Numbered from the stretch's first letter, positions 1,453 to 50,760 are shown. The stretch is 64,000 nucleotides of DNA from Geosiphon pyriformis uo1 (GCA_016748015.1 JAAOMT010000727.1:365306-429305), one strand, 5' to 3'. Notes: generated by a model not told the origin, from the sequence alone. Numbers and translations: made by a program.

Positions 1453-1516
1453 CAGTACAATCTTTCAAACCAAACCAACTTAATTATTAGTAATTCCTTC
1501 ATAAACAAACACGATA

Positions 1517-2799: not shown

Positions 2800-2819
2800 T
2801 TAATCAGCAAAAATCAAGT

Positions 2820-27366: not shown

Positions 27367-27784
27367 AGCTACAAAAAGGGAAATGTCTGAAGAAATAACT
27401 GGAAAAAGTTGAAGGGGAAAGAGAAAAGGAAGGCTATTTCAACAATGACTTAAAGCTCTCGTTGTAACTGGGGGATCAACGAAAGAAAGAGTTTTTTTGT
27501 TTCTTATAACAATATTTTCAACTTAATATTATTAAATTAACTTATTAATTAAAATTATATATTTATTTATCAGTTAATTTTAATTTAAATATTTGAGTAC
27601 TGTATTATTTAAATTAAAATATTATTTGATTTATAGAAAAAAAAAATAATATGAAAAGCCACAATAATTAATAGTTTCCTAAATATACTGTAATAAACCA
27701 AAAAAGATAATAAACTAACATTTTTATAATATTCAAAATTGTACCAACTTATATTATACAATTTTATTTTAATTAAGCATTTAA

Positions 27785-28816
27785 TTTTTTTAATAAGTTT
27801 TACTTAAAACTATGATAAACACCTAAATTAACTAATAGTCTCTTAAAATATGTTATAGAAAGTTTAAAATAATATTTTATTAATATTTATAAGACTACAG
27901 TAAATACTAAACTAATTAATAGTCTTTTAAATATATTATAATAGACCAAAAAATATAATAAATTAATATAAATTTATATAGTTAATTAAATATAACTTTT
28001 TTAATAAATTTTACTTAAAACTATAGCAAATACTTAAATTAATTAATAGTTTTTAAAAGTGCTATAAGAGATGTAAAATAACATTTTATTAATACTTATA
28101 AGGCTAAATAAATATTGGGCTAATTAATAGTCTTTTAAATATACTATAATAGATCAAAAAAATAAATAACAAACATTCTTATAATGTTTTTTCAAAATTG
28201 TATTAATTTTTTAATAAGTTTTATTTAAGATTATAATAAACATTTAAGTTAATTAATAGTCTTTAAAAGTATTATAAGAGATTTAAAGTAATATTTAATC
28301 AATGTTTATAAGACTATTGTAAATATTGAGTTAATTAATAGTTTTTTAGATGTATTATAACAGGCCAAAAATAATAATAAACAAACTTTTTCTTTAAAAT
28401 TGTACCAACTTATATTGTGTACAATTTTATCTTAAAAAAATATTAATTATTTTTATAAAAGATAAAATAAACAATTTATTTTTAAATTAATTTGTTTTTT
28501 TGTGTATTTTATTGTTAAAATACATATTATTAATTGTTGTTTTTAGTTTTTTTTACATGTAATTTAAAATTTTGGCCTTATTATCAGAAAATTGACTATT
28601 TTTTATGTATTATTTTCTAAAAAAGTTTAATATTATAGATTATATTTAAGTAAGTATGTTCTATAAAAATGTAGTAAAAATAAAACAAAGTGTGTTTATA
28701 TATATTTATAAGTATTTATAAAAAAAGATTTTTAACTTAATATTACTAAGTTAATTTATTAATTAAAATTATGTGTTTATTTATTAACTAATTTTAGTTT
28801 AAATATTTAAATACTG
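27785..28816. repeat. Three ~210-bp degenerate tandem units followed by an empty-site copy of the LINE target repeat
   Basis: Units begin TTTTTTAATAA(G/A)TTTTA(C/T)TTAA near 27785, 27996 and 28207. 28396-28816 matches the joined LINE flanks. Confidence 0.65.
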
Positions 28817-30949
28817 ATAAAATTAATAGTCAATTAGTTTATAATAATAATATTATACTGTCTTATTATAAATTATTTCGAATTTTATTTATTGGTTTAA
28901 TGCTTTTATTGTCTTATAAAACAATATTTTTTGAATTATTATATTAAAAAACAATATATTTTCAAAATAAAAATTTTAAAATTAAATAAAATAAGATAAT
29001 TAAAGAATAAATGCTGTTTTTAGTGATTTTTATTTAAATAATTAATTAATTCAAACTAAATTATGTTAATTTTATAATAAAAAATTTATTTAAAAAACAT
29101 TTTATGTATAAATACAACCAAAATATTATTGTTATAATTATATTACTTATTTATTTAACTGTTTTATTTGTATTAAACTTAATACAATAAAATTAATATT
29201 CTTAAAAAACTAATAATTAATTATATATATTAATATTTAAAATAATATTAAATAAATTTATATTATTATTTTCAAGTTTGTTTTTAATTTTAAACTTAGT
29301 ATTATTATAATTTATTTTACTTAAAGTTCTATTAAAAACAAATATGTTATTTTAAATAGTTTTAATTATATTTTTTAATTATATTTTTTAATTTATAATA
29401 TAAAACAAAAAAAGTATTAAGCAATTTGGTTAATAAATAACCAAAATATTAATAAATTTATAATAAATTTTATTAATAAAACCAATATAATTAAACAAAA
29501 ACCAATTACAAAATTAATAACAACAGAAAAACCAATTAAAAAACAATAATAAAAGAAATTAATAAAACAAAAACTAATATAAAATTTAGTATTAACAAAT
29601 AAAATCCAGAATTTTTGAAAAAAATTACAAATTTAAATAAAAATTTATTAAAAAAAGATTAAAATATCTTATAATTTACAGTCAAATAAGTTATATTTTA
29701 ATATTTCAAAGTTTTTTACCAAATATAATATTTTTTTAATATATTAATTTAGTAGTAATAATATTCAAATTTATTTTAAAACTAAAAATATAATATTATA
29801 TTATAATTGTTAAATAAATTTAAAATTTTTGGTATTCTTAAAATTTTTATTGGTATTCTTAAAATTTTTAAAATTACATGTTTTAATAATCTTTTATTTT
29901 ATTATTGGCTATTTTTAAATTATTATTATTTTTCTGTTTTTTATATAAATAATATTATAAAAATCAGAAAATTTTAATTATAGCCTACTTAATAAAAAAA
30001 ATAAAAAATGTGTTTTAAAAAGTTCTTTTAAATTTAAACTTAAAATTATTACCAATTATTGAAAATTAATCGCTAATCAATTTTATTTATTATTAATTTA
30101 GAATAAGTAATTTTAAAGTAGTAATATTTAAAAATTTTTGGGTTTTTTAAGATAATTTTTTTTATTAAATTGATTTATAATAGCTAATTATTAATTTAAA
30201 TTAAGATATTTTAAGATAAAATACATTTTTTTAAAGAAAAAAACTTTTTTTTTATACAATTTATTATAGTATTATTATTTGATTTAGCATTTTTTTTCTA
30301 ATATTTTAGTAAACTAAAGATATATTTTATTAAACTACAATTTATTTTTGTAAATTATTGATTATTTTAATAAATTGTTGAATATTTCAGTAAATTTTTA
30401 AATATTACATAGTTTAATATATTACATAATTTAATTATTGTAATTTATATTTGTGTTTTTGTATAAATCAAATTATTAATTGAATAATAATTTGAATAAT
30501 TTAATAAGATAATAAATAATAAATTAAAATAGTAATATATATATAGTAATAATAGAAAATATAAAAATAATTTTATGCTAATTGATATTTTAAATTTTTA
30601 TTGATAATATTATTTATTGGTTTAAAAATTTTTTTTATAAATTAAAATAAAAAAATACTAAAATAAATAAGCAGTTATATTAATTAAATTAATAATAATA
30701 ATATTATTAAGAATATTAAAGTAATTTTTAATTTTAGATTAAATAACTAAAATATTTTTATTACAAATAAAGTTAACAATTTGTTTTTTTTTTAATTTAA
30801 TATTAATTATAAAAATTAAACAATTTAATACTTTTTGTTTATTAAATATATTAATTATTAAAATATATCTTAAAACATAAAATATTTTTAAAAATATTTA
30901 TATAAAAACTTAAATAATTGTTCATAAAAATTATGAATTTAAAAAAAAT

Positions 30950-31554
30950 AAAAAAAAATTTGTAAAAACTATAAAAAAACTTTTATTTATAAATATTTGT
31001 TGTAATAATAACAAAAAATACTCAATAGTAACTATATATTATTATTACTTATATATTTTAGAACAATTTAGTTATATAAAATGACAAAAAAAATGAAACA
31101 ATAAATTGTGTTTAATCTGTAAAGAAATTTTTTCTAATAAAAAAATATAGAATAATATTTCAAGAAAAAGAAGAATATATAATAAATTATATTAATATAT
31201 AATCTTAATCTATAATTGAATAAAGAAAAAACACTAATACAAACTGCTTATAATCAAAATTTTACTTGTTTAAACAATTGTTTATATAACAAAAATAAAA
31301 TTTGAAGAATGACAATTGTTAAATATAATAATATTATAAAAAAAAATATACATAATTAAAAATATACTTAAAAAAATTATTTTAAGACTCATTTTTTATA
31401 ATACTCAATAATTTAGTAAAATTAACAAGTATTATTAGTTGCTAATATTTATTCAAAAAAAACAAAAACAAAAACATGCTAATTTTAATACTCAATTATA
31501 TAAATATTGTTTTATTTCATGTTAATTTAAATATTATAATAAATATAATACTGT
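30950..31554 (+). mobile_element. Relic Gypsy D (C-like family), left part: Cys-rich domain
   Basis: AT-decayed match to element C 40250-40820; continues in frame after 49585. Confidence 0.75.
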
Positions 31555-32213
31555 TGTTACCAGTAGAATTTTAGCTATTAATTAGCATGAAATTATTCTT
31601 ATAATTCCTATCAGTAATTAACATGTTAATATCAATCCAAATTATCACTTATTATTTAATCAATTTATCACATATCACGATTCAATTAATAATCCAATTA
31701 GTACAACAGAAAGTAAGATGATCAAATTACACAATACCCTGAACTTTGTAACATTCTAAAAATTCGCCGAAATTTACAGAAATTTGCCGAAATTTATATG
31801 AAATTCACCGAAATTTATAGAAATTTGCTAAAATTATGAATAGTTCATCCAAATTAATCAATAGTTTAGCGAAATAACTTGTAGTTCATCAAAATATATT
31901 TTTAGTTCGCCGAAATTTGAGCAAAGAGAAAAAGTGCAAGTTCATAGACTAGTACTACAACAAGTTGTATAAAAGAAGAGCTTTTCTCTTCAAGAAAATA
32001 TATCTTACTTTAGATTTATCACTTAGAACCATTCTTATACACACAAAAAGAAATAAATATCAAATAATTTGAAAAACCAAATTCTTTAATTATTGCACTT
32101 GGAAAATCCCCAAAACCCAACTAACGTTTTGAAATTGATTAGCTACCAATTTCAGTAAACTGTTAGTGACTCCAGGCCTGGATAGAAAACGTTTCCCTTG
32201 ACAAAATTCTATT
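31555..32213 (+). repeat. Family B LTR copy in inverted orientation (U3 end at the left flank), running into an assembly gap
   Basis: Reverse complement of 48923-49581 and of 32303-32918. Begins TGTTACCAG directly after CTGT. Confidence 0.92.
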
Positions 32214-32302
32214 NNNNNNNNNNNNNNNNNNNNNNNNNNNNNNNNNNNNNNNNNNNNNNNNNNNNNNNNNNNNNNNNNNNNNNNNNNNNNNNNNNNNNNN
32301 NN
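32214..32302. other. Assembly gap (89 N) between two converging LTR copies
   Basis: Run of N. Confidence 1.
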
Positions 32303-32918
32303 GTCATTAACAGTTTACTGAAATTGGTAGCTAATCAATTTCAAAATGTTAGTTGGGTTTTGGGGATTTTCCAAGTGCAATAATTAAAGAATTTGGTTTT
32401 TCAAATTATTTGATATTTATTTCTTTTTGTGTGTATAAGAATGGTTCTAAGTGATAAATCTAAAGTAAGATATATTTTCTTGAAGAAAAAAGCTCTTCTT
32501 TTATACAACTTGTTGTAGTACTAGTCTATGAACTTGCACTTTTTTTCTTTGCTCAAATTTTGGCAAACTAAAGATACATTTTGATGAACTACAAGTTATT
32601 TCGCTGAACTATTGATTAATTTGGATGAACTATTCATAATTTTAGCAAATTTCTATAAATTTCGGCGAATTTCATATAAATTTCGGCGAATTTCTGTAAA
32701 TTTCGGCGAATTTTTAGAATGTTACAAAGTTCAGGGTATTGTGTAATTTGATCATCTTACTTTCTGTTGTACTAATTGGATTATTAATTGAATCGTGATA
32801 TGTGATAAATTGATTAAATAATAAGTGATAATTTGGATTAATATTAACATGTTAATTACTGATAGGAATTATAAGGATAATTTCATGCTAATTAATAGCT
32901 AAAATTCTACTGGTAACA
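32303..32918 (-). repeat. 3' LTR of B (U5 end lost in the gap)
   Basis: Starts TGTTACCAG right after the PPT. Contains four ~20-bp AAATTCGCCGAAATTTATAG-type repeats and TATAAAAG. Confidence 0.92.
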
Positions 32919-32945
32919 TAACCTCCTCCTTAAGACTGAGCTCTG

Positions 32946-33605
32946 TCAAAGTCCAAGCACTACTGTAATGTCAAGATAGTGGTCCAAGATGATTGAAGTA
33001 ATTTGCTCTGAAAATTGTTGAAATTTCAGTTCTGTGAGCTTTCCAATGTATTGTATTTTCAATGGTTGAAGTATTGGGCTTTGTAGGACGTTTTCACAAG
33101 TATTAAACAAGTCATAGAGTCTAAGAGCTGCTTTAAGTTTGTAGCGAGTGTTTGTTAATCCAGCTGCTGTCTTGAATTCATTGTGAATTTGTTTTTGTAT
33201 GGCTTCTGGGGTGGTATTTGTTGCTTCAAGTTCTAGTTTTCGTTTATAAAGTATTTTTCCAATGCAGAAATATTTAAATATAAGGGTATGTTCATTGTTC
33301 TATTCATTAAGTAATAGTAGAAGTTTTTGTTGTATTGTGGCATTTGGTGGAATGTCAATAGAGGCAGATAAAAAGTTTTCTTTTAGTGCCTGTTTCAAAA
33401 GTTCTGGTAACCTATTTTCAGAGTGATTTCTTGTTTTTCTTCTATAGGGGTGATAGTTCTGTGAATGATTTGCTACTGGGGCTGTGGTTTCTTTCTGAAT
33501 GTAATTAATTTGACTTCCATTAATCATTATGAATAAGTCAGGAAGTGTTTTCAAGGCTAATATTAACTTTTGGGATATTTGTTGAATATTTTGAGAAATA
33601 ATCAT
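32946..33605 (-). pseudogene. B additional 3' ORF (about 220 aa)
   Basis: MIISQNIQQISQKL... then one internal stop, then ...KAALRLYDLF...IGKLTELKFQQF. Lies between integrase and the PPT. Confidence 0.75.
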
Positions 33606-34060
33606 GATAAAATTGACTAATTATGAAAAAGAAAAATAAAGAAAATTATTTTTGAATATGGGGTTTTTATTTGTTTTTGGGTTTGGGTGTTTTGTAATTA
33701 TTTATTATTTTTGTCTTTGTGTTTTTATTAGAAAATTATTGTAAAATTTAAGTATTCAAGTTTGGTTGTTGTTCTATTATAATTATTGGTTCTAAATTTC
33801 GGGAAATATCTTCAGGATTAATTAAAGGGGAATGTGTACCAATTTGTGGAATTAATGGTTCAGGATTGTTTCTGGAATGATAGTGTTTCAATCTGTCTCC
33901 ATGTGCAACTTTTGCTAGTATTTTGTCATCAAGTCTTAACTTGTATAATCNNNNNNNNNNNNNNNNNNNNATGGGGTTTTTATTTGTTTTTGGGTTTGGG
34001 TGTTTTGTAATTATTTATTATTTTTGTCTTTGTGTTTTTATTAGAAAATTATTGTAAAAT

Positions 34061-35446
34061 TTAAGTATTCAAGTTTGGTTGTTGTTCTATTATAATTATT
34101 GGTTCTAAATTTCGGGAAATATCTTCAGGATTAATTAAAGGGGAATGTGTACCAATTTGTGGAATTAATGGTTCAGGATTGTTTCTGGAATGATAGTGTT
34201 TCAATCTGTCTCCATGTGCAACTTTTGCTAGTATTTTGTCATCAAGTCTTAACTTGTATAATCTATTGCCTAGAATTTCGTAAATATAAAATGGTCTATC
34301 CCATTTGTTTTCAAATTTCTCACTCCATTGTTTTTCAGCCTTAGTTTTATGTAAGAAAACTTTATTTTCAACTTTAAATTCATTGGTAATGGATGGTAAT
34401 TTGTTGTCATGTTTTTCTTTTTGTTAAGTTTGAGAATGTTCAATATGAGTTGTTGCTATTCTTTTTTTTTCTTCCAGTGTACTAAAAAGAGTGTAGGCTC
34501 TTCTTTGGAGTGTTTCTTGAAAGTTTTCTTCATTGATTGGTTGCACTGGGTATGTTTTCACTGTGAAATTAATTGGTAATGTTGCTGTTTTTCTATAAAT
34601 AAGATCAAATAGTATGTGTTTTGTAGTATCTTGTTTTAGTGTTCTGTATGCTAGTAACACTAATGGAATAAAGATATCCCATTTCTGTTCAAAGTCTGTT
34701 GAGATTTTGGCTAGAGATTTACACAATGTTCTGTTGAAACATTCTACAAGTTTATTTGTTTGAGGGTAATAAAGTGATGATAAAGATCTTTTGACATTGA
34801 ATCGTTCACAAATTTCTTGTATCAAGTTGTTCACAAAATGTGTTTCTTGATCAGATAAGAGTTCAATTGGGCATTCATGTCTACAAATAATGTCTTCATA
34901 GATGAAATTTGCTACTGATTTTGCATCTGCTCTTTGGATGGCTCTAGTTTCAAGCCATTTGGTGAGATAATCTATTGCAACTGCAATATAACAATTTCCT
35001 TGAGTTGTGATAGGTAATGGTTCGACTAAATCAATTCTAACTCTGTCAAAAGGTTGTCCAACTTTGATTGGATTTAAAGATTCTGTGGGGCGAGTTCCTT
35101 CTCTTCTTTGACAACTATCACAAGATTCTACATATTGTTGAATGTCTTTTTGCATGTGAGGCCAAAAATAATGTTCAAGAGTTCTTTGGATTGTTTCATC
35201 TCTTTCCAAGTATGCTAAAGAAGGATCTATGTGCATGTTGTATAGAATTGTTTTTTTTTTATTTTCCTGTACTAATCTGAGTGGTTGGTTTGAGTTTTTA
35301 CAATTTTTGTAATAGATTTTGTTGTGGTGTATAAAATATTGTTTAGATTGGTGTTGTAATCAATGTTTTTCACTTGGAGACCAATTTTCTGGCATGGTGA
35401 GAGTTTCTAAATAGTTTTTGATGTTGTTGTAGTTTTCTGGATTCAT
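34061..35446 (-). pseudogene. B integrase in a separate ORF
   Basis: Starts MNPENY at 35446. Has CDSCQ, IDLVEPL, DYLTKW, LLSDQ and YYPQTNKLVECFN, and ends EPIIIIE. Confidence 0.9.
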
Positions 35447-35513
35447 TGTGGTTAATTTTGTTGTTTGTTCTGCTGTTAAGTTTGTTGGTGTTTTGTTGGT
35501 GTTGATGTTGGTA

Positions 35514-38500
35514 TTAATATTGTCTCATTCTTGAAAGGCTATTAACATTGGTGTGTAGTTTTTCTGGTTTGTGATGTACAATGTATCTGTAGTCTGCTAG
35601 AAAGTTATTCCATTGAGACTGTTTGGCACTTTGTTCAGTTTTTTTTTTATTAAGCCATTTGAGGCCAATATTGTCAGTTATTATGTCAAATTCTTTTCCA
35701 TTTTTTAGGTATTGTTGAAAGTGTTTGAGAGCCCAGATGACTGCAGTGGCTTCCAATTCAGTTGAGCCATATTTAAGTTCTGTTGGCTTGAGTGTTCTGC
35801 TGGCATAGGTGATAACTTGTTCCTGGCCATTTTCATCCAATTGTAATAAGATGGCACCAAATGCTATGTGTGAAGCATCAGTGGCTAATTGGAATTGTTT
35901 GTTGAAGTCTGGGTAAACAAGAACTGGGGCTGTTGTCAATTTTGTTTTGAGAGTTTCAAAAGCTTTTTGTTGTTTTTCAGTCCATTTGTATGACATATTT
36001 TTGTTGATAAGATAATTGAGTGGTTTGGCAATTTCTGAGAATTTTTTTATGAATTTTTGATAGTAAGAGGCTAATCCTACAAATCCTCATAGTTCTGTGG
36101 TATTTCTGGAAATTTGAAAGTTTTTGACAGCACTGATTGTTCCTGGGTTTGGTTTGATTCCATTTTTACTAACTATGTGTCCAAGAAAGATCAAGCTTGT
36201 TTTTTCAAAGTGACATTTTTCAATGTTTAACTTCAATCCTGCTTTCCATAATCATTGAAAAACTTCTCACAGGTGGATAAGATAAGTCTCAAAGCTTAGT
36301 GAATATACATCAGTGTCATTAAGATAGACAACTACTAATTGCCACAAGAGTTCTTCATATACAACATCCATGAGTCGCTGGAATGTTGCTGGTGCATTGC
36401 AGAGTTCAAAAGGCATAATATTGAACTCGTAGTTTTCTTCCTGGATAGTAAATGCTGTTTTGGGTTAGTCTTTTGGGTCTATTTCGACTTGCCAGTATCC
36501 ACTTTCTAAGTCTAAAGTTGAGAAGAACTTGGCTTTTCCTAGAGCATTTAGCATGTCATCAATTCTTAGAAGAGGGTAGACATCTCCAATTGTAATACTA
36601 TTTAGTTGTCTATAATCAATACAGAATCTGATTTTTCCGTTTTTTTTTTAACTAAAACTACTAGTGAGGCCCAAGGACTTCTTGATGGTTGAATCAATCC
36701 GTTATTGAGCATTCTTTGGACTTCTTTTCTAATGAATTGGTGGCTGGCAGATGGCACTCAATAAACTTGTTGATGTTTTGGTAGAGCATCTCTTGTATAG
36801 ATCTGATGTTGAACAATATCCGTTTTTCCCAAGTTATTGTTGTCTTTTGCAAATATATCTGCAAATTCAGCTATCAATTGTTTCAATTGTCTTTGTTGTT
36901 AAGGTTTTAAAGGATCCATGTTGATTCAAGAGAGTTTTTCTTTCAAAAGATGGTAGTTTTCAGTGGTGGGAATGAAATTTGGATTTGGGAGTAGAGTGTG
37001 TCTTACAATTTCAATAAAATTAGAGACAATTTAAGAGTTTTCATCTTGAAAAATATTGCTGTGTATAATTCCAATCTTTAATTTGTTTAATAAGACAATA
37101 AGGTAATTATTGGGGTTGTAGAATGTAACTTGAAATTTTTTCATTCCTTTGGGAATATAAACGTTTGGAATTAAGATTTCATGCTTCAAACAGATTTGTT
37201 CATTGGATTCAAGTTTTGAGCAAGTGTAAATTTTGTGATGTTCTCCAAAAGATGAAATGGTAATTGGTTGGAAAAGTTGAAGAATCTGGTAAGATTCATT
37301 CTGTATATTAAGAGCTATGTTTATTGGAACTGTAAATCGTCCAGTTGAACCAAAACCTTGTATTTCCCTTTCACTTTTTCCCAATTGTTCTCTGTTGTTA
37401 ACTGATTGTAGACCCGAAATATTGATTAAGAGTAGGTAAATTGCTTGAGCGATTTTTTCAGCATGTTTAATCTTGAATAATTTGTCTGTTTCATTCTGCA
37501 ACATGATAGTAATGTCTCTAGTGTATCCTGCATCTATAACTCCTCTTCTAATATTGATTCCTTTGCTTGCCAATAATTATCTGGAAGCAATTTGAACCAT
37601 TGCTCCTAGTGGTATTTCAAGAGCAATTTTGAAATTGATTTTTGTCAAAGACTTTGATTGGAAAACCAAAGTATCTTTTCCTCGATATTTTAGATCATAT
37701 CTAGCATCAATTTCGTGTGCTTTTTCTGGTCTGATTCCTTGGCCATGATTGTCAAAATATTTAAGTTATAGAGGTGGTTGCTTTTTAAGAAAATAGATGG
37801 AGGTAGTTGGTAGTTCTTTTACTAGTTCAGATACTCCAAATTCGATTTTATTTTCATTATTCTCATCTGGCAGAGGAATGCTAAGAGCATAACATTCTAA
37901 ACACCATTGGTCATTACAAGGCATAACACATTCTTCACACAATTGAATGTTCATTTGCTCTAATTGTTGAATTTGAGCATCTTTGGTCAGATATGTGTGG
38001 CTTGCAATTTGGTGGTAGGTTTCTACTTCATCTTTATAATCAAATCCAGCTAATTTTATAGTATACTCAATATATTTAGCTTCTTTCATTTGGTAGACAT
38101 CTTCTTGGGTGGCTCTATTGATTAATGCCATTGCTAGATCAAAAATTATTTTAGCATTATGAGGGTAGTGGTAAAGTTTATTGAGAGCACTGTTGTATGT
38201 TGCATCAAATAGTGTTCCTCTTCTGACTTTTTCCGAAATTGATAGAGCATATTGACAGATCTGATCACATACTTCTTCTCTTATTGTTACATCAATCCAA
38301 TTGCATTCTTCTGGTAGCATATCTCCACATGTGAAACAAGATGTGTTGTCCCATTTTCCACTTTTTTTTGGAGATCCAAATCGTTTTTTATGGCATGCTT
38401 TACAGAAGTAACAAGTGCAAGTTTCATATTTTTCTTCTAGGGAAATACAGATTCTCATAGATGAAAGCTTCTTTTTGCAATCTTTGCATTTTAATGGAAT

Positions 38501-38851
38501 ATATGGTGGTTCTTTTCATGGTTCTGGTGTGGAATATCTAACTTTCTTCTATCTTCTTGATTCTTCAAAAATCTCTTGTTTTGTTTCCTCAGCCCAATTA
38601 GATGGTGATCTAAGAGTCATGTAGGTTTCAGTAAGTGGCATTTCCTTTTTTTCTTCAAATTCAAATACTAGAGCTTTTTCTGATTATTTATTAAAGATAC
38701 CACAGGTTGCAGGTACTATAGTATATTGTCTTTGGTATGAGATTTTAAGTTCTTAAGTTTCCCAGTTCAGGTTTGCATTGGTCTTGAGAAGCCAATCATT
38801 TCTGACTAGAGCTTGGTATTAGGGTGCATCCATAACAAGAATCTTAACTGG
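35514..38851 (-). pseudogene. B pol: protease C-terminal half, Cys-rich domain, dUTPase (about 37340-37765), RT, RNase H
   Basis: GVIDAGYTRDI, KIAQ and GFGSTG (dUTPase motifs); FCIDY and YLND (RT); TDAS and ELEATAV (RNase H). Many stops. Confidence 0.92.
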
Positions 38852-39588
38852 TGTTACTCATAGAATATAAGAAAATATAGTATTATTAATCAGTAGATAT
38901 TAGCCAATCAGAGGTAGACATAGTAAATATGGAATTCCAGGATTCCTCTCAAAGGAATTGCAGGATTCTAGGAAATTCAAAATTCTCCGATGAAGAATCG
39001 CAGAATTCCAGAATTCCAGGATTCCTCTCATCAGAAATCACAGAATTCCAGGAATTCCAAGATTCCTATCACAAGGAATTGAGAAATTGAGGAATTTCAA
39101 ATAAATAATTATTCCATACTCTAAAACTTCTTTCCATTACCAACATCTTATGTTGATAATAATTCATACTTAATCACACTAGAACAATAGTTCTTGATTA
39201 TGACTATTGATGGGATACTAATCTACAAATTGTCTTGGCTTATTTCTTTATATTTCTTTATTTTCTTTATTTTCTTCTTTGATTTTGTTATTGTGCACTA
39301 ACCAATTTATTAAAAGCACTGATTACTGATGTCAAGGATTGCCTAGTAAAAGACCCCTGCAAGTGGGTAAGACATGTACAGAAGATACAGATTACTTACT
39401 AGAGGATTGCCAGCCACCAAGCTGAGAAAAGAATTGACAGACTTGCGAGTCTGGGAAGTTACGGATAAAACAACTATTGAATTTCTGTTCATTATACAAC
39501 AGAGTCCATTAAAACTTTCAGATACAACACTTTCAAAACATCATCAATGGAAATAGCTTTTTGAACACCAAGTTATGAGTTTGTTATT
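38852..39588 (+). repeat. 5' LTR of C (84-bp internal deletion; 3' end deleted)
   Basis: Aligns to 45437-46257 and joins directly to protease coding sequence at 39589. Confidence 0.9.
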
Positions 39589-42500
39589 AATTAAGTCACC
39601 GAGTTAATCGAGCTGCTAGTGCCAGAATCATCATGGCTGATGGAGTGACCAAGACTTTAATTGGCGAAATTAATGACTTACCAATTGAAATTAATGGCAT
39701 TATAGTCCCAATCAAAGTACTCATCATGGAAACCACCCAATACCAAGCTCTATTTAGTAATGACTGGCTGTCCAAGACAAATGCCACTTTAGACTGGAAC
39801 ACACAAGAGCTTCAAATTAGCCAGAACTGGCAACACATGCATGTACCAGCAACATGTGGCCACTTCAAGGCTACCAACACCATGGCACCACTAATTAACT
39901 TTGAGGAAGAGAAACCAAAACCTACCTGGGAAGCCTACCAAGTGTTGTGAGCTAACAAAAAGCACAACGAACTGCCACCAATACTCTCTTAGGATGACAA
40001 TGGGAAAAGAAAGCAAACAAACAAACTTACTTGGGAAACTGATGATCTGACTTGGACTAACAACAAACAAGAAGAAGCCTCAAGTTGGGAATAAAATGAA
40101 GATAAGAGAAAAGGATAAGAAAAGGAAGAAGGAATGCCACCAACTGCCACCATTTATAATTCCTACACCCACCACATTCCACAACAATCCAATTATCAAT
40201 GGCCAAAGCTTGTATGCGTCAATTGCAGCAAGAAACTGTTGTCAATAAGTGTATGCTGTGGCGATGATGAAGAATACTATACTGCAACAAAGTTCTACTG
40301 TTGTCCATGCATATTCAAATGCTTTGAACAACCAAAGAGGCAAGGAAAATGGAATAACCAATCTTGTCTTGCTTGTGGAGAGACCCTGCTAGATGAAGGG
40401 ATGTGGAACAACATTTCAGGACGTGGAGGAACATGTGATGTGTCAATACACAATTCTAATAAGCGACTAGATAAGGAAAGAAACCCCAATAGAAGCAGCC
40501 TGGAGAAGAGCCATGCAGCAACTAGACAGTTGTCCACATGATGATGACAAAATTTGGAGAATGGCAATTGCCAAAATAGAAGGAGCAACACCCAAAGAGA
40601 TCAGAGAGATCAAAAACAATTCCCCAGAGCCCATAGAACTTGACTGAGACCCAGAACCAGTTATAAATTTTTTAGATCTGGAGTAATTCCACAAACATTA
40701 TCAGGAGTTAACACCCACAAAGAAGGAGTAGGAGAAATGCTTGGAAGAAATAAACACCAGATTATGTGACCACTGTTTAATTCCATGTGATTTCTAATAT
40801 TGTGATGAGTGTGATCTCATCTACAATCTACCACCATACATGATCTACACAATTCCCAAGGAAGAAGAACTAACCAACAGCTGCGCATCGGAATCGGAAT
40901 TAGTTTACAATCCCAATTCAAATTCTGACAACAATGATGATGAAAACACTGGTTCTAGCTTTGTGCAATATGGCAATAAAAATATCAATGATTTAGACTC
41001 CAATCCTAACTACAAACAATACATCACCCTACCAAATCTCTCTAAAAAACAGGAGTTGAAATGGTACAGTGACAATGGTAAAGGCATCATGCCAAAACAA
41101 GCACATGATACCAATGCAGGGTTTGACCTAAGATATCCAGGAAAAAATACTATCAAATTGAAACCACATTTGTGCACCTGCATTGATCTGGAAATCCCAG
41201 CAACAACAATGGTTCAACTAGCATCCCAGAGTAGTTTAGCAAAAAGAGAGATTAATATAAAAAGAGGAATAATTGACATGGAATATGTAGGAAATATCAT
41301 TGTCATACTACAAAATGATTCAAAAAAAGCCTATATAATACAGCCAAATGAAAAGATAGCACAGGCAATATTCTTACTGTTAGTTAAGATAGCTCAATTA
41401 GTACCAGTAAGAAATAGAGAAAAATTAGAAATAACAGCAAGAGAGATACAGAGATTTAGGTCAACAGGTAGAATAGATGTACTAGTTAATATGGCGGAGG
41501 AAAAAATTGTTGGCCAAGGAGAAATTATCTCAACCAGTCAAGCTATTTTCATTCCACCATATAGCCAGTACATACTAGCAATAAAAAGGAAGAAAAAAAA
41601 GCAAGAACAGATTTTTGAAGCTAAAGCAAACCTTTGTGAATCAGGAGAGATTGGACTGATCAATCTCTACATACCAGCCAAAAGCTATAGCCACATAAAA
41701 ATTCCCATCTACAACAACACTGGCAATGTTATTAACATACCAAAAGAAACCACCATCAGATATTTAACCACAGAAATAGAAGACCAACCACCAAACCCCA
41801 TTTCAGACTTTCCACAACTTTGTGAATATGTCAACATCACATCACAAACAATCTATGGACGAGACAAATGTTATTTGCTCCAATCAGAACAATTGGAACA
41901 AACAAACATGGGAAATTTAGACTCATTACAACGTATGCAGCTCAAGATGTTGCTTAACAATTTCAATGACATCTTTGCCAGCGAAAATGAGTTTGGCCAA
42001 ACTGATATTATCCAGCATCAGATCAAGATTAGAGATGCAATGCCAATTAAACAAAGAGCATACAGAGTGCCACCAGCCAGTCATGAGATCATTCATCAAG
42101 AAATCAACCAGATGCTTGACAACAGGCTAATTCAACCATCAATAAGCCCATGGTTGTCACCAGTAATACTTGTCTGTAAAAAGAATAGAAAAATCCGATT
42201 TTGTGTGGACTACAGAAAACTCAATGGTATAACTCATGGAGACAGTTATCCAACTCCATGAATACAGAAATTATTTGATGCTTTTGGTGGGAACAAATGG
42301 TTCTCAACATTAGACTTAGACAGTAGTTACTGGCAAGTAGCCATGAATCCAGTTAACAAAAAAAAGACAGCATTCATTACTAGAGAAAAAAATTTCGAAT
42401 TTGAAATGATGCTATTTGGCTTGATCAACGCTCCAGCCACTTTCCAATGGTTAATCGAAATTGTTTATATTGACTTATTGTGGAAATCAGTAGTTGTATA

Positions 42501-43302
42501 CTTGGATGACACCAATGTATTTTCAAAGATGTTTGATGATCATCTTTATTATCTTTAACAAGTATTCAAAAGACTAAGAAGAGCAGGACTAAAGTTAAAT
42601 GCAACAAAATGCTTCTTTGGCAAGACAGAACTAAAATTCTTGAGACACATAGTCAGCAAAGACGGCATCAAAACAGATTCAGAGAAAATAGAGATAGTAA
42701 AGAACTTTTCAGTGCCAACCAATATGATAGAACTGAAATCATTCTTGGGATTTGCCAGCTACTATTGACATTTTATCAAGAACTTCTTCAAGATAGCACA
42801 GCCACTCAACCAACTGCAAAACAAAAATACAAAATATGAATGGACAGAAAGTCAACAAGAAGCTTTTAATATTCTAAAAAGAAAGCTCATTCAAGCTCCA
42901 GTACTGATCTATCCAGATCACAGCAAACCATTTATCATCACCACTGATGCATCCAGTCAAGCATTGGGAGCAGTATTATCTTAGAGAGGACCAGACAGCA
43001 GAGAACATCCAGTAGCATATGTCAGCAGAGGTTTAACACCAGCCGAAAAGAACTATAGAACACCAGAACAAGAACACTTAGCAATATACTGAGCAGTCAT
43101 AAAATGGAAAAAATACTTGAGCCAGAAGTTTGAAGTGTACACAGATCACAAAGGATTAACATTACTTCAAAAACAAAAATTTGAAGATAGAAGACAGTCA
43201 AGATGGAAAATGATACTTGCACTATATAATTATACTATACATTATAAAAAGGGAAAAAAAAACAGAAATGCTGATGGTTTATTGCGAATAAGACAAATCT
43301 AA
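39589..43302 (+). pseudogene. C pol: protease C-terminal half, Cys-rich domain, dUTPase (about 41060-41470), RT, RNase H
   Basis: AHDTNAGFDL, GIIDMEYVGNI, EKIAQ and STG (dUTPase); FCVDYRKLN and YLDD (RT); TDAS and YTDHKGL (RNase H). Confidence 0.92.
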
Positions 43303-43363
43303 AGACATTTCAACCCAAAAATATAACAAAACCAAAACAATATTTATGAAAATATAACAAAAG

Positions 43364-44733
43364 ATGAACACACAAAAATATCAACAACTTTAATATTATA
43401 TAGATACTCAACAGTTCAAGGAGAAATTATCTCAACTGGAACAAAAGAGGATCAAACAACAATCTAAATATTTTATCACCCACCAAAATATATTTTATCG
43501 AAAAAATAGAAAAGATTCAAATCAGCCAACCAGAGTAATTACAGAACCAGAAAAAGAAATAATACTGTTTAATATGTACTCAGATCCAACTGCAGGACAT
43601 TTTCATAAAGAAGCAATCATAGAAAGAACCAGAAAGAGATACTATTGGCCATCAATATATCCAGACATTATACAATATGTACAAAATTGTGATGCTTGTC
43701 AAAGAAGAGGTGGAACAAGACCCAGCAAACTATTGAGACGAATCAAAGTGAGACAACCATTTGATCACATTGGAATTGATTTAGTTAGACCATTGACAAT
43801 TACCAGCAGAGACAACAGATATATTGCAGTAGCCATGGACTACCTTACAAAATAGCCAGAAGCAAAAGCAATTCAAAGGGCAAATGCAGAATCCATTGTC
43901 GAATTCATTCATCAGGATTTGATTTGTTGACATGGATGTCCAAAAGAACTATTATCAGAACTCATTTTGTGAATAGAACATTAGCAGAACTAAGCCAAAG
44001 ATTCGGAATTAAGAGACTACTATCACTACCATACCATCCACAAACCAATGGATTAGTTGAAAGATTTAATAGAATATTGTGTAAAGCAATGGCAAAACTC
44101 AGCCAAAAAAACCAAGACAAATGGGATTTGTTTATACCATCTATACTATTGGCTTATCAAACAATGAAGCAAGACACTACACAAGCAACACCATTTGAAT
44201 TAGTATATAGTAGAACAGCAACACTACCAGTTGAGATAGAAGTTAACACTTATCCAACAGAACCAATAACTGTAGACAATTTTCAGGAAACATTACTAAG
44301 AAGAACATATGATTTAATGAAAACTCTAGAAAACAAGCAATAAAGAGCAGCTGATAACATTAAAAAGGCACAAGAGAAACAAAAAGAGAGGCATGATAAC
44401 CAACTACCAGACAAATCAGTTGAATTCAAGATTGGAGACAAAGTACTTTTACATCATACTAAAGCGGAAAAACAATGGAGTGCAAAATTTGACCCCAAAT
44501 GGGACGGACCATTTTACATAGAAAAAATTCTAGGAAATAGAGCTTACAAATTAAGACTGAACAACAAAATCTTAGCCAAAGCAGCACATAGTGATTAACT
44601 GAAACCATTTTACTAGATAGCATTAGCATCTACCAATAACATTCCACAACTGGGAGTACAAAGAATACTAGTCCAACCAGATGAGATTTCATGAGACTGG
44701 GAACCAATCATAATCATTAAACCAAACACGTAA
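43364..44733 (+). pseudogene. C integrase in a separate ORF
   Basis: Starts MNTQKY. Has GHF, CDACQ, GIDLV, YHPQTNGLVERFN and WDGPF, and ends WEPIIII. Confidence 0.9.
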
Positions 44734-44763
44734 AATTGAACAAACAAAATAGTATATAAAGAC

Positions 44764-45423
44764 ATGGTCAATGCGACAAAAGATACCAGAAAAATGGAAA
44801 TAACCAACAACATCCACTCACTAGCACAACAACTCTTTCAATTAATCCAACACCAAGAAATGGAAATTACAATCAATCAACAAACCATTTGTTACAAAAA
44901 TATGACAAATATACCACAACACAAAGCACAGAAAAGACTTTAAAATGTTGTTGACAAGATCATGACTAAGATAAAATTGGCCATAAACGAACAACAAATA
45001 GTCAGATTACACCAAGACCTTACCAGAGAAACTTGGACTTGGTGGATGCAACAATTTCCAAAAAACTATTGTCATTTCCACTTGGAACAACATGTAAATA
45101 TTCAGAATTTGTACACCGACAAAACAAAATGGTTATTTGACACAACAATACTGAAACAACTGGAACAATTTGTGGGAAAAAACAATCTAACCACACAAAC
45201 TCGAGCCATTTACTGGCTATATATGGGATTTTAAGACCGACCAGAAATCTTACTTAACACAGCAATGGATACAGTTACGAGTAATCAATTTGGAAAAATG
45301 ACCAATGCCCAATTTGAAAAATTACAAAATCAAATAACACAAGTAATACTTGAAAAAGAAGTTCAAGAAATAATTCAAGAGGGAGAATTAAAAGAATTAG
45401 ATTTTGACAGAACTCAATATTAA
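44764..45423 (+). pseudogene. C additional 3' ORF (about 220 aa)
   Basis: Single frame from ATG 44764 to TAA 45421 with two internal TAA stops. Similar N- and C-terminal patterns to the B and A ORF3. Confidence 0.75.
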
Positions 45424-45436
45424 AAAAAAGGAATAA

Positions 45437-46289
45437 TATTACTCATAGAATATAGAAAAATATAGTATTATTAGTCAGTAGATATTAGCCAATCAGAGGT
45501 AGACATAGTAAATGTGGAATTTCAGGATTCCTCTTAGAGAAATTGCAGAATTCCAGGAAATTCAGAATTCCCTGACAAGGAATTGCAGAATTTCAGAATT
45601 CCAAGATTCTTCTCATCAGGAATCACAGAATTCCAGGAATTCCAAGATTCCTGTCACAAGAAATTGAGGAATTGAGGAATTTCAAATATGTATATATAGC
45701 AGTAGTGTTAGAAACAGAAAAGACAGAATTGATACTACAGAATTCTTAGTCTAAAAACACAATCATTAAATAAATAATTATTTCATACTTCAAAACTTCT
45801 TTCCATTACCAACATCTCATGTTGATAATAATCCATACTTAACCACACTGGAACAATAGCTCTTAATCATGGCTATTGATGAGATACTAATCTACAAATT
45901 GCCTTGGCTTATTTCTTTATATTTTTTTATTTTCTTTATTTTCTTCTTTAATTTTGTTATTGTGCACTAACCAATTGATTAAAAGTGCTGATTACTAACA
46001 TTAAAGATTGCCTAGTAAAAGACTTCTATGAGTGGGTAGGACATATACAGAAGATATGGATTACTTATCAGAGAATTGCCGGCTACCAAGCTGAAAAAAG
46101 AATCGACAGACTCGCGAGTCTGGAAAGCTACGAATAAAACAACTATTAAATCTCTGTCCATTATACAACAGACTCCATCAAAACCTTCAGATACAACACT
46201 TTCAGAACATCATCAATGGAAATAGCTTTTTGAGCACCAAGTTACAAGTTTGTTATTTGATTCAAGACCCCAAATAATTAACTATAACA
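45437..46289 (+). repeat. 3' LTR of C (853 bp)
   Basis: TATTACTCA (mutated TGTTACTCA)...TATAACA after a purine tract, with a GGAATTCC-rich array and TATATATA near 45691. Confidence 0.92.
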
Positions 46290-48700
46290 CTGAAATAGTG
46301 ATTCCATTGATTGTAAAGGAGAAATCATCAATTTCTTCTACTGAAGTCTTCTTCATACCATCAGCTGTAACAATAACTGTTTGAGCTGGTCTGTCTATGT
46401 TTTGTTTGAGTTGTTGCATCAGCTGGTAAGTAATAATACTTCCAGCCAATCCACTATCTAAGATTAAGCAAATGGGTTTTTCTTCCACTGTAGTTTCTGT
46501 GTACATAACAGTAATTGTTTTCTGTTTATTGACTACTGCATTACTAAGTAGAAATGGTAATTCATTTGCTTCAAATTCAAATGAAAATATATCTGACAGA
46601 TTGGCATTTTGGGCAATTTAAGTTGGTGAAATGATATGGTTGGAAGAGTTTGATCTTGGTGCTGCAACTTCACCTTCAGAAAGTGCAGTTTGTTGAAAAT
46701 CCGATTCCTCTGGTATTGTAAGATAACTGAGTTGAGTGTGATAATAATTGAATCTTTGCTGACCAGAATTTCGAGGAACCAACTGGTTATTTGGATTGAT
46801 TCTGTTGTTGTTACTGCAATTAATTTTGGGGTGTGAATTGGTTATGTTGAACCAATCTTCTTGCTGGTACTTGATATTGTTGAGTGAGTGGTGTCTGATA
46901 TGGCTGAATTGGTAAAGATTGCTAATATTGTTGCTGTATTAGTTGTGGAGCTGGTGAATAGTAACTGTTTTAATTTTGTGGTCTTGGTGAATAATAGATT
47001 AGTGGTAGAGATTGGTAATAAGATTGTTGTGGTGAAGAGTAATGTTGATTACTCTTGTTTTGTTGGTCTCTCTGTAATTTTCTGCAATCTTATTTTCAGT
47101 AATTTAGAATTTTACAGTAATGGCAATTTTGAGGTTGGTTGTTGGATGATGTTCTAAAGTTGTTCTGATTGTATTGTTGTAGGGGTTGATATCTTTGTGA
47201 TTGTTGCTGCTATTGTTGTTGGTTTGTAAAATAGCTTTCAACTTTTTTTGTGAGTTGGTCTATCTTCTCTTCAGCTGCTAAGCTGGTTTCTCCAATTGCA
47301 AGGTTTACAAGCTTGGTGTGATTTGCTTCTTCCATTGCCATTTCATAGCTCTTTGCATGTCTAATGGCAGTTGCTAAGTCTGCTGGTGCGTGTGAACAAA
47401 CTTTTTTAATCAGTTTGTCTTTTAACCCTGCTATAAACTGATCCAGAATTTGAGCATCAGAATAGTAGTTATTGGTTTCTAATTGTCAGATTTATCTGAG
47501 AAGTTTGTTAAATTTTTCAAGATAGGTCATAACAGTTTCAGATGTTTCTTGTTTGATATTGTGAAAGCAGTTTCTGAAAGTGATAGAGGTATTGTTATTA
47601 GTGAATTGTTGTAAAAAAGCATCTTTGAATGCTTGCCAGTTTTCAAATGGTTTTTCTAAATTTTCAAACCATTCTTCTACTGTTCCTTAGAGAAAGTAGA
47701 GAATTGCTTTAAGTATTCTTGCTGTAATTCAACCATTTGCATCTCCTGCTTTTTGAACTTTGTCAAGCCATTCTTGAGGACTGGTATCATTATCTTCACC
47801 TGTAAATTCTGGAATTTTTGCAATGTAAGTAGTTGCCATTTCCTGTGGCTTCTCCTTGATCTGATTCAGTTTTTTCACTTTCCAAATTTTCTGAATGATT
47901 ACTTTCGTTTTTCTGCAAGTATTCAATAATATTAGTGCTTGTTGATATAGGTTCCTGCTGTTGAGTAGGATTTTTAGGTAACTAAAAATCTTCTGGTCTG
48001 GAAAAATGGTTAAGTGGTGAATTTGGTGTTTGTGGTCAAGCAAGTAAAATTAGAAATGGTGTGATAGAAAGTGGTAATTTGACACTGGTTTCTTGTTCAG
48101 ATGTTTGCAAGTGTTTGGCAGTTGTCTTTGGTAGTATTGGAGTGTTTGGAGCGGTTTTTAAGTGTTGTTTCACTTTTTGTTTGCCTTTGTTGCCTGTTTC
48201 TGTTTCTGATTCAAAGTCAAAAGAGTATTTAGACTGTACTGGGTATTTTTCTTCACAATACTTGATAATGTTGTAATTGAGTTTTTGAAAGTAAGTGGCA
48301 AGTGTTTCATTGTTAAGGTCTTCAGTTTCTAACTGTAAATAGTATACTAGATTATTGTAGAGGTTGCTTCTCACTTCTGAAATGTTGTAATTTCCAAGAA
48401 GATAATTGTTTATATGGTTTTCAATGTATTGGTAGAGTGTTCTTTCAACAATTTCAATTCTGTCTGGGATGTTGAATCTCTGCTTGCAATGGGTGTAAAT
48501 TGACTGATAATACTCCAGAGTTGTTATGTCTGGTGTAGTTGTCACTTTGAAGTTTGTTGTTTGCTGTGTTATTTCCATAGAAGAGCACCAAATGTTACTG
48601 AAGGGTTTTGGTCTCTTTTCTTGAGTGTTGTAACTGTCTGTTGGTTGCAAATTCACGTTTTCTAGAAGTAATTGAACCTCCAATAACTGAATTTATCTTC
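46290..48700 (-). pseudogene. B gag (with long N-terminal extension) and protease N-terminal half
   Basis: IPEFTGED..PQEWL, FKDAFLQQF, IKQ..SETV..Y and QFIAGL (retrotransposon gag); LILDSG (aspartic protease). Confidence 0.85.
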
Positions 48701-48835
48701 AAATTATCTCCTATAATTTGAACTGCTGGGCTTATAAGTGGAATGGCCAATTTTTTGCCAGTTACTTTATGTAGTTATGTTGAAGTAAATGTTAACTCTT
48801 TCCCAGGAATTGCTTGTCTGGAAGCTCACTAAAAA

Positions 48836-49581
48836 TGTGTAGTTACTTTGCTGTGAAAGTCAACTCTTCTACAGGAATCTATCCTAATAATTGTAATAAA
48901 AAAAGAAAAGAAAAATAAAAAAAATAGAATTTTGTCAAGGGAAACGTTTTCTATCCAGGCCTGGAGTCACTAACAGTTTACTGAAATTGGTAGCTAATCA
49001 ATTTCAAAATGTTAGTTGGGTTTTGGGGATTTACCAAGTGCAATAATTAAAGAATTTGGTTTTTCAAATTATTTGATATTTATTTCTTTTTGTGTGTATA
49101 AGAATGGTTCTAAGTGATAAATCTAAAGTAAGATACATTTTCTTGAAGAGAAAAGCTCTTCTTTTATACAACTTGTTGTAGTACTAGTCTATGAACTTGC
49201 ACTTTTTTTCTTTGCTCAAATTTCGGCGAACTAAAGATACATTTTGATGAACTACAAGTTATTTCGCTGAACTATTGATTAATTTGGATGAACTATTCAT
49301 AATTTCGGCGAATTTCTATAAATTTCGGCAAATTTTATATAAATTTCGGCGAATTTCTGTAAATTTCGGCGAATTTTTAGAATGTTACAAAGTTTAGGGT
49401 ATTGTGTAATTTGATCATTTTACTTTCTGTTGTACTAATTGGATTATTAATTGAATCGTGATATGTGATAAATTGATTAAATAATAAGTGATAATTTGGA
49501 TTGATATTAACATGTTAATTACTGATAGGAATTATAAGGATAATTTCATGCTAATTAATAGCTAAAATTTTACTGGTAACA
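48836..49581 (-). repeat. 5' LTR of B (inner boundary uncertain: 48836 or 48933)
   Basis: U3 end TGTTACCAG at 49581. Candidate end ...TACACA is followed by a degenerate PBS-like TTTTTAGTGAGC. Confidence 0.85.
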
Positions 49582-50760
49582 CTGTTTACAATTTATTATC
49601 ATATATTATCTATATTATTTTAGAGCTTAACAAACCAATTAATAAAGCTAAAAAATTGAAATTAGAGCTTAATCTTAATTAATTATTATTTTTAAATTTA
49701 TTGAAGATTTAAATATTATTACTAAAGCTAAATAATATATAACATTTTTTAATTTATTAAAAAGTAAGTGCTTAAATAGTTTAGCAAAAATAATAAAAAC
49801 ATTATATCTAAAAAAACACATAAAACAAATATTAGATTTAATCTTAAAACTTTATTTATTTAATAATATAAATTTAAAATTAGCATAAAAAATTTTAACA
49901 ATTACTATAATTTAGTTAATATTTAAATTTAGCTTAACCAAAAAAAAATTACTATAAAAGAAGAAATAATTGACATTGAATATATAGAAAATATTATTAT
50001 TATACTACAAAATAATTTAAATAAAGTTTATAAATAAAATCAAAAGAAAAAATAACACAAATTATATTCTTGTTATTAATTAAAATAACTAAATTAGTAT
50101 TAATAAAAACCAAAAAAAATTAAAAATAATGACCAAAAAGATTAAAAGATTTAAATTAACAGAAAAAATTTATATATATATCAATATAACAAAAAAAAAT
50201 ATTAATTAAAAAGAAATTATTTTTATTAGTTATAATATTTTTATTCTACTATATTATAAATACTTATTAAAAATATTTTAAAAAATTAAAAATTAGCCCC
50301 AAATTTTAAAGCAGAATTAGATAAATGTTAAAACAAAACTATTGTCATTACTAATTTGTATATACTAGCTAAAAATTACAAAAATATTAAAATTTTAATT
50401 ATTAATAACACAAAAAATTATGTAGAAATATTGGCTAATATATTATTAGATATTTAAGTCCAAAAATTAAGAACCAGCAGTCAACCAATGTTTTAAACTT
50501 CAATTAATTATGTAAATATATAGTTTTTACATTACAAATTTGGATTTAAAAAATAAATATTATGTATTTTAATTAAAACAATTAGAGCAAATAAATTTAA
50601 AAAATCTGAATTAATTATAAAAAATATAGCTTTAAATAATATTAAAACAATATATCAATATTTTTACAAGCAAAAATAAATTTGAAAAAACTTATATAAT
50701 TTAACATAAAATCAAAACAAAAAATGTTAAGCCAATTAAACAAAAAATATATAGAATAAC
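49582..50760 (+). mobile_element. Relic Gypsy D, right part: end of Cys-rich domain, dUTPase, start of RT
   Basis: AT-decayed match to C 40820-42070 (YNPPPxxIYTIP, IDxxYxxNI..LQN, IF.S.N.F.KT..I.H.I). Confidence 0.75.

What the first reader, a model, noticed from the sequence alone, without database searches (positions are those of the whole stretch)
31551..49585. 18-kb insertion bounded by two inverted U3 LTR ends with a perfect 4-bp TSD
Seen: CTGT-[LTR + strand, TGTTACCAG...]-gap-[3' LTR -][internal -][5' LTR -, ...CTGGTAACA]-CTGT. Removing 31555-49585 rejoins relic D in frame (AAT ACT GTT TAC AAT, matching D-L-I-Y-N in C), so this is one insertion site. Yet both junctions are the same U3 end, whereas a normal provirus has U3 at one end and U5 at the other. 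The three LTR copies each carry private substitutions. Inference, three options: (a) concerted integration of U3 ends from two cDNAs joined tail to tail, one later reduced to a solo LTR or hidden in the gap; (b) a composite with LTR-derived long TIRs moved by the free-standing integrase, like a Ginger DNA transposon; (c) misassembly at the gap.
Basis: partly seen in the sequence, partly recalled or inferred. Interest (0 to 1): 0.85.

Follow-up and report, generated by a model that had tools for sequence, protein, structure and literature searches.

The report
Retrotransposon with the same end twice
A dead fungal retrotransposon sits in one insertion site with its start end (U3) joined to the chromosome on both sides, which read data confirm; it likely arose when a copying slip gave its DNA copy two start ends that the integrase then inserted normally, a rare accident rather than a new kind of mobile element.

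Summary
A Ty3/gypsy element (family B, with an older nested element C) in the fungus Geosiphon pyriformis has the U3 start of its 989-bp LTR at both flanks. The 4-bp duplication CTGT is exact: the flanks map to paralog C with a 4-base overlap. The 89-N gap lies inside both left LTR copies; neither shows the U5 end. The three LTR copies are about equally diverged (2.1-2.9%), and the 3' LTR stops exactly at a 12-bp palindrome in U5. Best reading (0.38): one aberrant cDNA gained a second U3 end by a strand switch during reverse transcription and was integrated normally. Rivals: two cDNAs in one intasome (0.2), a later replication template switch (0.2), a second insertion into the duplication (0.13). 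A Ginger-like transposon is not supported. The gap is unresolved and only one case was seen; no genome-wide count was possible. Inverted LTR-element pairs at one site are already known from Drosophila.

The parts
30974..31550 (+). Left half of decayed gypsy relic D (insertion target)
   Evidence: blastn to C 40230-40575 and tblastn to C ORF 40119; covered by read contig
31551..31554 (+). Left copy of 4-bp target duplication CTGT
31555..32213 (+). Extra LTR copy L, LTR positions 1-659 (U3, R, part of U5), inverted relative to element B
   Evidence: junction in read contig to 31575
32171..32182 (.). 12-bp palindrome TCCAGGCCTGGA (LTR 617-628), candidate switch point
   Evidence: longest inverted match within LTR 590-989
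32214..32302 (.). 89-N assembly gap inside both LTR copies; centre of the inverted repeat unresolved
32303..32918 (-). 3' LTR T of element B, LTR positions 1-616; stops at the edge of the palindrome
32919..32931 (-). Polypurine tract before T
33658..34263 (.). 293-bp exact duplicate around a 20-N gap: unmerged contig overlap, likely an assembly artefact
34064..38847 (-). B pol: protease C-part, dUTPase, RT, RNase H, integrase, SH3; stops and frame changes
   Evidence: Pfam; 6 stops in 771 aligned codons
38852..46289 (+). Nested gypsy element C inside B protease, duplication CTGG/CTGA, LTRs 10.8% diverged, gag missing
46294..48692 (-). B gag-like ORF pieces and protease N-part
   Evidence: the gag label is inferred from position, no Pfam hit
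48583..48590 (-). Primer-binding-site-like TGGTGCTC, 2 bases after the 5' LTR
48593..49581 (-). Complete 5' LTR F, 989 bp, 6-bp terminal inverted repeat
   Evidence: junction in read contig
49582..49585 (+). Right copy of target duplication CTGT
49586..50758 (+). Right half of relic D
   Evidence: blastn and tblastn to C; read contig to 49800

Best explanation
This is a real Ty3/gypsy insertion with U3 joined to both flanks of one 4-bp duplicated site, likely made when a single aberrant cDNA gained an inverted second U3 end during reverse transcription and was then inserted by integrase in one normal event. Shown: one site, both junctions, PBS and PPT in normal places, three U3 copies of about equal age, and a 3' LTR that stops at a 12-bp palindrome. 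Inferred steps: (1) the plus strand stalled in U5 of the 3' LTR; (2) it annealed, probably through the self-complementary 12-mer, to a plus-strand strong-stop DNA (its own or that of the co-packaged genome) and copied it backwards; (3) that template begins exactly at U3 base 1, so the copy ended in a precise U3 end; (4) integrase, probably supplied in trans because B is broken and carried the older element C, joined both U3 ends and made the 4-bp duplication. The product is an inverted repeat with arms of about 0.6-0.75 kb at one end of the element, which would also explain why the assembly breaks there.
For: Exact U3 start and exact 4-bp duplication at both ends, present in read contigs at single-copy-like depth with no break where a U5 path would branch. 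Pairwise differences over 616 bp are L-T 13, T-F 15, L-F 18, and 22 of 23 variable sites are transitions, as for three copies born alike that then decayed by deamination. All three share T at LTR 481, where 92% of summed contig depth has C, so L is from the same sub-lineage. The gap is 89 N; a switch at the palindrome predicts -31, two whole LTRs 703. The longest inverted match in LTR 590-989 is the 12-mer at 617-628 and its minus arm resumes at 616, exactly where T is cut. B LTRs differ by 2.4% but nested C LTRs by 10.8% (Fisher p 4e-10), so B+C was likely recopied as a unit. Precedent: two co-packaged RNAs, strong-stop transfers and defective members joining in (PMC6894440, passages); Ty1 composite elements ascribed to strand switching and integrated with normal duplication (PMC2939329, passages).
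Against: The centre is not sequenced. No strand-changing joint was listed for the LTR in either lay (15 of 19 joints shown; 3 listed), though loose-end tables were cut (243 and 178 rows hidden). The assembled L runs to 659, 31 bases past the palindrome, so a clean fold-back requires that tail to be mis-extended. The palindrome match is post hoc (about 1 in 370 possible cut points, my estimate; a 12-bp palindrome somewhere in the LTR occurs in 40% of 200 shuffles). Shared derived changes exceed a pure star: L+T 4, T+F 2, L+F 0 (simulated P 0.04 at CpG sites, 0.08 elsewhere). T and F share A at 374 where L and 94% of depth have G, which fits L coming from another template. One case only.
Confidence: 0.38

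Rival explanations
1. Two cDNAs each gave their U3 end to one intasome; the free U5 ends were then joined by host repair and the second element was reduced to one LTR or deleted.
For: Explains precise ends, one duplication and equal ages. T+F share A374 and A572 against L, as expected if L came from another cDNA. Two-donor concerted integration is standard in vitro (recalled, not from a call). Aberrant HIV ends are joined to further viral DNA in either orientation (PMC5041404, passage), though there the duplications are usually large.
Against: Needs extra steps; whole LTRs tail to tail need 703 bp against 89 N. L+T share 4 derived changes against F. No U5-U5 joint listed (weak).
Confidence: 0.2
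2. B integrated normally; later a replication template switch or hairpin repair replaced the U5 end of the 3' LTR with an inverted copy of its own U3-R, switching at the 6-bp terminal inverted repeat and back at the 12-bp palindrome.
For: The LTR's 6-bp terminal repeat makes such a junction look precise. L is closest to T and shares 4 derived changes with it. Template switching at short inverted repeats is common in yeast (10.1101/2024.05.03.589936, passages).
Against: Needs the switch to fall on the terminal 6 bp, about 1 kb from its partner, when 7-10-bp inverted matches exist elsewhere. T and F share the rare A374 that L lacks. L and T have more private changes (6 and 5 derived) than shared ones.
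Confidence: 0.2
3. Double insertion: a second family-B copy integrated in the opposite orientation into the left CTGT copy of an existing normal insertion, then collapsed to one LTR, with later loss at the palindrome centre.
For: Known route: inverted tandems of LTR elements exist in Drosophila, with a target-like motif at the junction of two Rover copies (PMC5932611, passages). The window is a nest of insertions.
Against: Needs a base-exact second hit. No strong target motif was seen: 24 contigs with loose ends before the U3 start agree only 0.5. Predicts a 707-bp gap unless deleted. L would have to be of the same sub-lineage and age.
Confidence: 0.13
4. The junctions are real but the scaffold between them is wrong or hides much more sequence, so the 18-kb unit is not as drawn.
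For: Two N gaps within 2 kb, one with a 293-bp unmerged overlap. No record spans the gap.
Against: B protease reads through across C. PBS and PPT sit normally. Flank register is exact. Even a wrong scaffold leaves U3 on both flanks; opposite-orientation alleles would branch the flank contigs after the shared 6 bp, which they do not.
Confidence: 0.06
5. A composite that moves as a DNA transposon using the LTRs as long terminal inverted repeats (Ginger-like; first reader's option b).
For: Geometry fits: identical TGTTAC ends facing inward and a 4-bp duplication. Bao et al. propose Ginger1 TIRs arose from two opposed LTRs around an integrase (PMC2836005, passage).
Against: Carries RT, RNase H, PBS and PPT. 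No intact transposase in the window. Repeats of at least 616 bp against 40-270 bp, and CTGT is not the Ginger1 CCGG/CCGT motif. No second copy found; none could be sought genome-wide.
Confidence: 0.03

Closest known systems
Ty3/gypsy LTR retrotransposons of Glomeromycotina with dUTPase
   Same: TG...CA LTRs, PBS, PPT, order PR-dUTPase-RT-RH-IN, 4-bp duplication; integrase 45-46% identical to Cetraspora and Rhizophagus polyproteins (3 hits).
   Different: The downstream junction is an inverted U3, not U5; three U3 copies.
Inverted tandem LTR elements by double insertion (Drosophila Rover pair; PMC5932611, passages)
   Same: Same LTR end on both outer flanks of one site.
   Different: Here the second unit is at most part of one LTR, and no target motif is visible at the centre (unsequenced).
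Aberrant proviruses and strand-switch composites (HIV/ASLV, PMC5041404; Ty1, PMC2939329; passages)
   Same: Extra LTR DNA in inverted orientation at one end; composites made in reverse transcription can be integrated.
   Different: In the HIV cases the abnormal end is joined by host repair, usually with large duplications or deletions; here both ends are precise with a short duplication.
Ginger1/Ginger2 DNA transposons (PMC2836005, passages)
   Same: Inward-facing TGT termini, 4-bp duplication, gypsy-type integrase; matches the proposed precursor geometry.
   Different: Retains RT, RNase H, PBS, PPT; repeats much longer; integrase not free-standing; one copy.

Membership tests
Ty3/gypsy LTR retrotransposon | Order PR-RT-RH-IN | tested here: met
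Ty3/gypsy LTR retrotransposon | Direct LTRs with TG...CA ends, PBS after the 5' LTR, PPT before the 3' LTR | tested here: met
   F and T are direct repeats, 97.6% over 616 bp; PBS-like and PPT present
Ty3/gypsy LTR retrotransposon | Short target-site duplication | tested here: met
   4 bp, register fixed by paralog C
Canonical provirus structure | U3 at one flank, U5 at the other | tested here: not met
   U3 at both flanks in read contigs
Inverted tandem by double insertion | Copy of the target site between the two elements | not testable with these tools
   centre lies in the 89-N gap; no record spans it
Inverted tandem by double insertion | Strong target-site preference | tested here: inconclusive
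   24 U3-junction contigs agree 0.5 in their flanks; single duplications not listed
Ginger DNA transposons | TIRs of 40-270 bp | tested here: not met
   at least 616 bp
Ginger DNA transposons | Integrase without RT or RNase H | tested here: not met
   RT and RNase H present
Ginger DNA transposons | Several copies with the same ends at different sites | not testable with these tools
   no whole genome held; contig tables truncated

The most novel reading that the evidence does not exclude
The conserved U5 palindrome makes this gypsy family produce U3/U3 cDNAs repeatedly, so that a share of its insertions are bounded by long inverted LTR repeats with a normal duplication: a natural, integrase-made intermediate on the proposed path from Gypsy retrotransposons to Ginger-type TIR DNA transposons.
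Probability: 0.07. Interest if true: 0.85.

Novelty: new variant of a known kind. Interest (0 to 1): 0.47.

Why it matters
It is a read-supported case in which an LTR-element integrase appears to have used two U3 ends in vivo, or in which a rearrangement mimicked that exactly. The centre sequence would tell the routes apart with one long read. It shows that a Gypsy element bounded by opposed LTRs with a shared duplication, the structure proposed as the origin of Ginger1 transposons, can arise in nature. LTR finders that demand direct repeats with a duplication would miss or mis-bound such insertions. As a single dead copy it has no evident function.

Tried and rejected
No whole genome is held, so no genome-wide count of U3/U3 against U3/U5 sites was made. 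Loose-end tables could not substitute: 24 contigs at the U3 start, but no row at either LTR end among the 6 shown. Runs X2 and X3 held next to none of the stretch (1 and 0 records laid); no evidence either way. No fold-back or U5-U5 joint was listed; short palindromic junctions may drop out of such contigs, so this is weak. A scan of metagenome contigs with the U3 start motif gave 2 loci, both 21-base matches with no extension: chance. A search for longer integrase relatives found 3 proteins at 45-46% and no close intact helper (weak by the tool's own note). Stop counts give only mild support for an old interior: 6 in 771 codons against about 2.4 expected from LTR divergence (my estimate). Three weak self-inverted AT-rich hits elsewhere in the window (5800-6900, 16800-17900, 58400-59400) were matched or beaten by 1, 4 and 1 of 20 shuffles: not features. 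Flank symmetry around the site is 10 of 30 ungapped, too weak to drive a misjoin. Three look-ups of earlier findings returned nothing. Nine paper searches listed no paper describing a U3/U3 LTR-retrotransposon insertion with one short duplication; I read only listings and keyword passages, no supplements, and subscription journals are not covered, so this is not proof of absence.

Full report
Setting. The window is fungal: a SNAP-like host protein at 10260-11489 is 100% identical to a Geosiphon pyriformis protein (1 of 9 hits). It is a nest of decayed gypsy elements and a LINE. No whole genome was available, so evidence from outside the window comes from contigs of one public run, X1, which holds 0.75 of the sampled words and may be the source sample.

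Anatomy. Self-comparison shows three copies of one LTR: L (31555-32213, +), T (32918-32303, -) and F (49581-48593, -). F is complete: 989 bp, with a 6-bp terminal inverted repeat, followed after 2 bases by a PBS-like TGGTGCTC. T is preceded by a purine tract. Between them on the minus strand lie gag-like pieces, protease, dUTPase, RT, RNase H and integrase, so F...T is an ordinary Ty3/gypsy element, B. Element C (38852-46289, +) sits inside B's protease with a CTGG/CTGA duplication, and the protease continues across it. L covers LTR positions 1-659 and T 1-616. The 89-N gap falls inside both, and LTR 660-989 occurs only in F.

One site. Each flank was scored separately against paralog C. The left flank ends at C 40820 and the right flank, counted from its CTGT, starts at 40817 (34 and 36 of 40 letters; next registers 26), so exactly 4 bases are duplicated.

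Are the junctions real? In X1, a 655-bp contig of depth 71.5 matches 30969-31575 without difference; its neighbour has depth 64.3. A 284-bp contig of depth 95.5 matches 49555-49800 without difference. They run 21 and 27 bases into U3, where a U5 end would differ at 10 and 14 letters. Both fall short of the tool's 31-letter rule for a bridge, which such contigs cannot meet at a high-copy repeat (inference). Neither breaks after the 6 bases that U3 and U5 share, as it should if a common U5 path left there (inference). Misassembly at the junctions is therefore unlikely. The gap is not spanned by any record.

Ages. Over 616 bp, L-T differ at 13 sites, T-F at 15, L-F at 18; 22 of 23 variable sites are transitions. 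All three carry T at position 481, where 468,471 of 507,560 summed contig depth shows C, so L is a close relative, not a random family member. Taking T and A as derived, L+T share 4 changes, T+F 2, L+F 0; this is somewhat more than parallel mutation gives (P 0.04 at CpG sites, 0.08 elsewhere). At 374, T and F share a rare A while L and 265,659 of 282,743 depth have G. The signal is mixed: some sites tie L to T, one ties T to F. These depth tables are truncated and weighted by contig, so they are rough.

A passenger. C's LTRs differ at 81 of 747 sites (10.8%) against 15 of 616 for B (Fisher p 4e-10), and CpG o/e is 0.64-0.86 in B's LTRs but 0.08-0.24 inside. A nested element cannot be older than the insertion that holds it, so B+C was likely recopied as a broken unit with help in trans; conversion of B's LTRs is the alternative. 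Co-packaging of defective and active RNAs is described for Ty1 and ONSEN (PMC6894440, passages).

The centre. Two whole LTRs tail to tail need 703 bp, or 707 with a target copy; the assembly has 89 N, though gap estimates in repeats are unreliable. The longest inverted match in LTR 590-989 is the palindrome at 617-628, and a switch there resumes the minus arm at 616, the exact base where T is cut. This is post hoc, and L's assembled tail runs 31 bases beyond it. Self-complementary motifs serve RNA dimerisation in Ty1 (search listing only); that role here is a guess. No strand-changing joint was listed in either lay.

Mechanism. Any explanation must add a third U3 start and join it to the flank at base 1. 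Recombination between LTRs cannot change which end touches a flank. A plus-strand strong-stop DNA begins exactly at U3 base 1 (established; passages), so a plus strand that switches onto one in U5 ends with a precise U3 terminus, and integrase then makes the short duplication in one step. I rank this first (0.38) because one event gives precise ends, equal ages and a short centre. Two cDNAs in one intasome (0.2) fits site 374 but needs later loss. A post-insertion template switch (0.2) fits the L+T sites but must land on the 6-bp terminal repeat. Double insertion (0.13) has a precedent in the inverted Rover pair of Drosophila (PMC5932611, passages) but needs a base-exact second hit without a visible target motif. 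Scaffold error (0.06) and a Ginger-like composite (0.03) are least likely. The first two routes together, integrase using two U3 ends, come to about 0.6.

Known or new. Inverted pairs of LTR elements at one site and aberrant proviruses with inverted extra LTR DNA are known (passages only). Ginger membership fails on repeat length and on the presence of RT and RNase H, yet the geometry is the one proposed for Ginger1's origin (PMC2836005, passage). Nine searches of an open-access library listed no description of this exact structure; that is limited coverage, and no supplements were read. Verdict: a real, probably one-off, variant of a known kind; interest 0.47, rising sharply if more U3/U3 sites share this centre.

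Noticed in passing
window 38852-46289 within 32303-49581: Nested element C is much older by LTR divergence (10.8%) than its host B (2.4%), suggesting a broken 17-kb composite was recopied in trans, or that B's LTRs were converted.
   Followed up: partly
window 30063-30598 (-): Old, AT-eroded relative of the family-B LTR (about 66% identity) about 950 bp left of the insertion.
   Followed up: partly
window 33658-34263: 293-bp exact duplicate around a 20-N gap; likely an unmerged contig overlap.
   Followed up: partly
window 32946-33620 (-): Two ORF pieces between B's integrase and PPT with no Pfam hit; a similar post-integrase ORF exists in family A (2928-3521, 51758-52299).
   Followed up: no
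window 37766-38515 (-) and 40119-40541 (+): Cysteine-rich domain between protease and dUTPase in B, C and D with no Pfam hit in B.
   Followed up: no
window 2-3530 and 51699-55208: Two copies of another gypsy family, 76% alike, in opposite orientation; the second heavily eroded (27 stops in 711 codons).
   Followed up: no
window 59550-60030 (+): Decayed integrase-like stretch with stops; no RT or RNase H hit beside it.
   Followed up: partly
window 21509-27147 (-): LINE-like element with endonuclease-, RT- and RNase H-like ORF pieces, GC 40-46% (labels from motif recall, not scanned).
   Followed up: no
window 27781-28386: Tandem array of about 210 bp, 2.9 copies, with related sequence at 19981-20589.
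   Followed up: no
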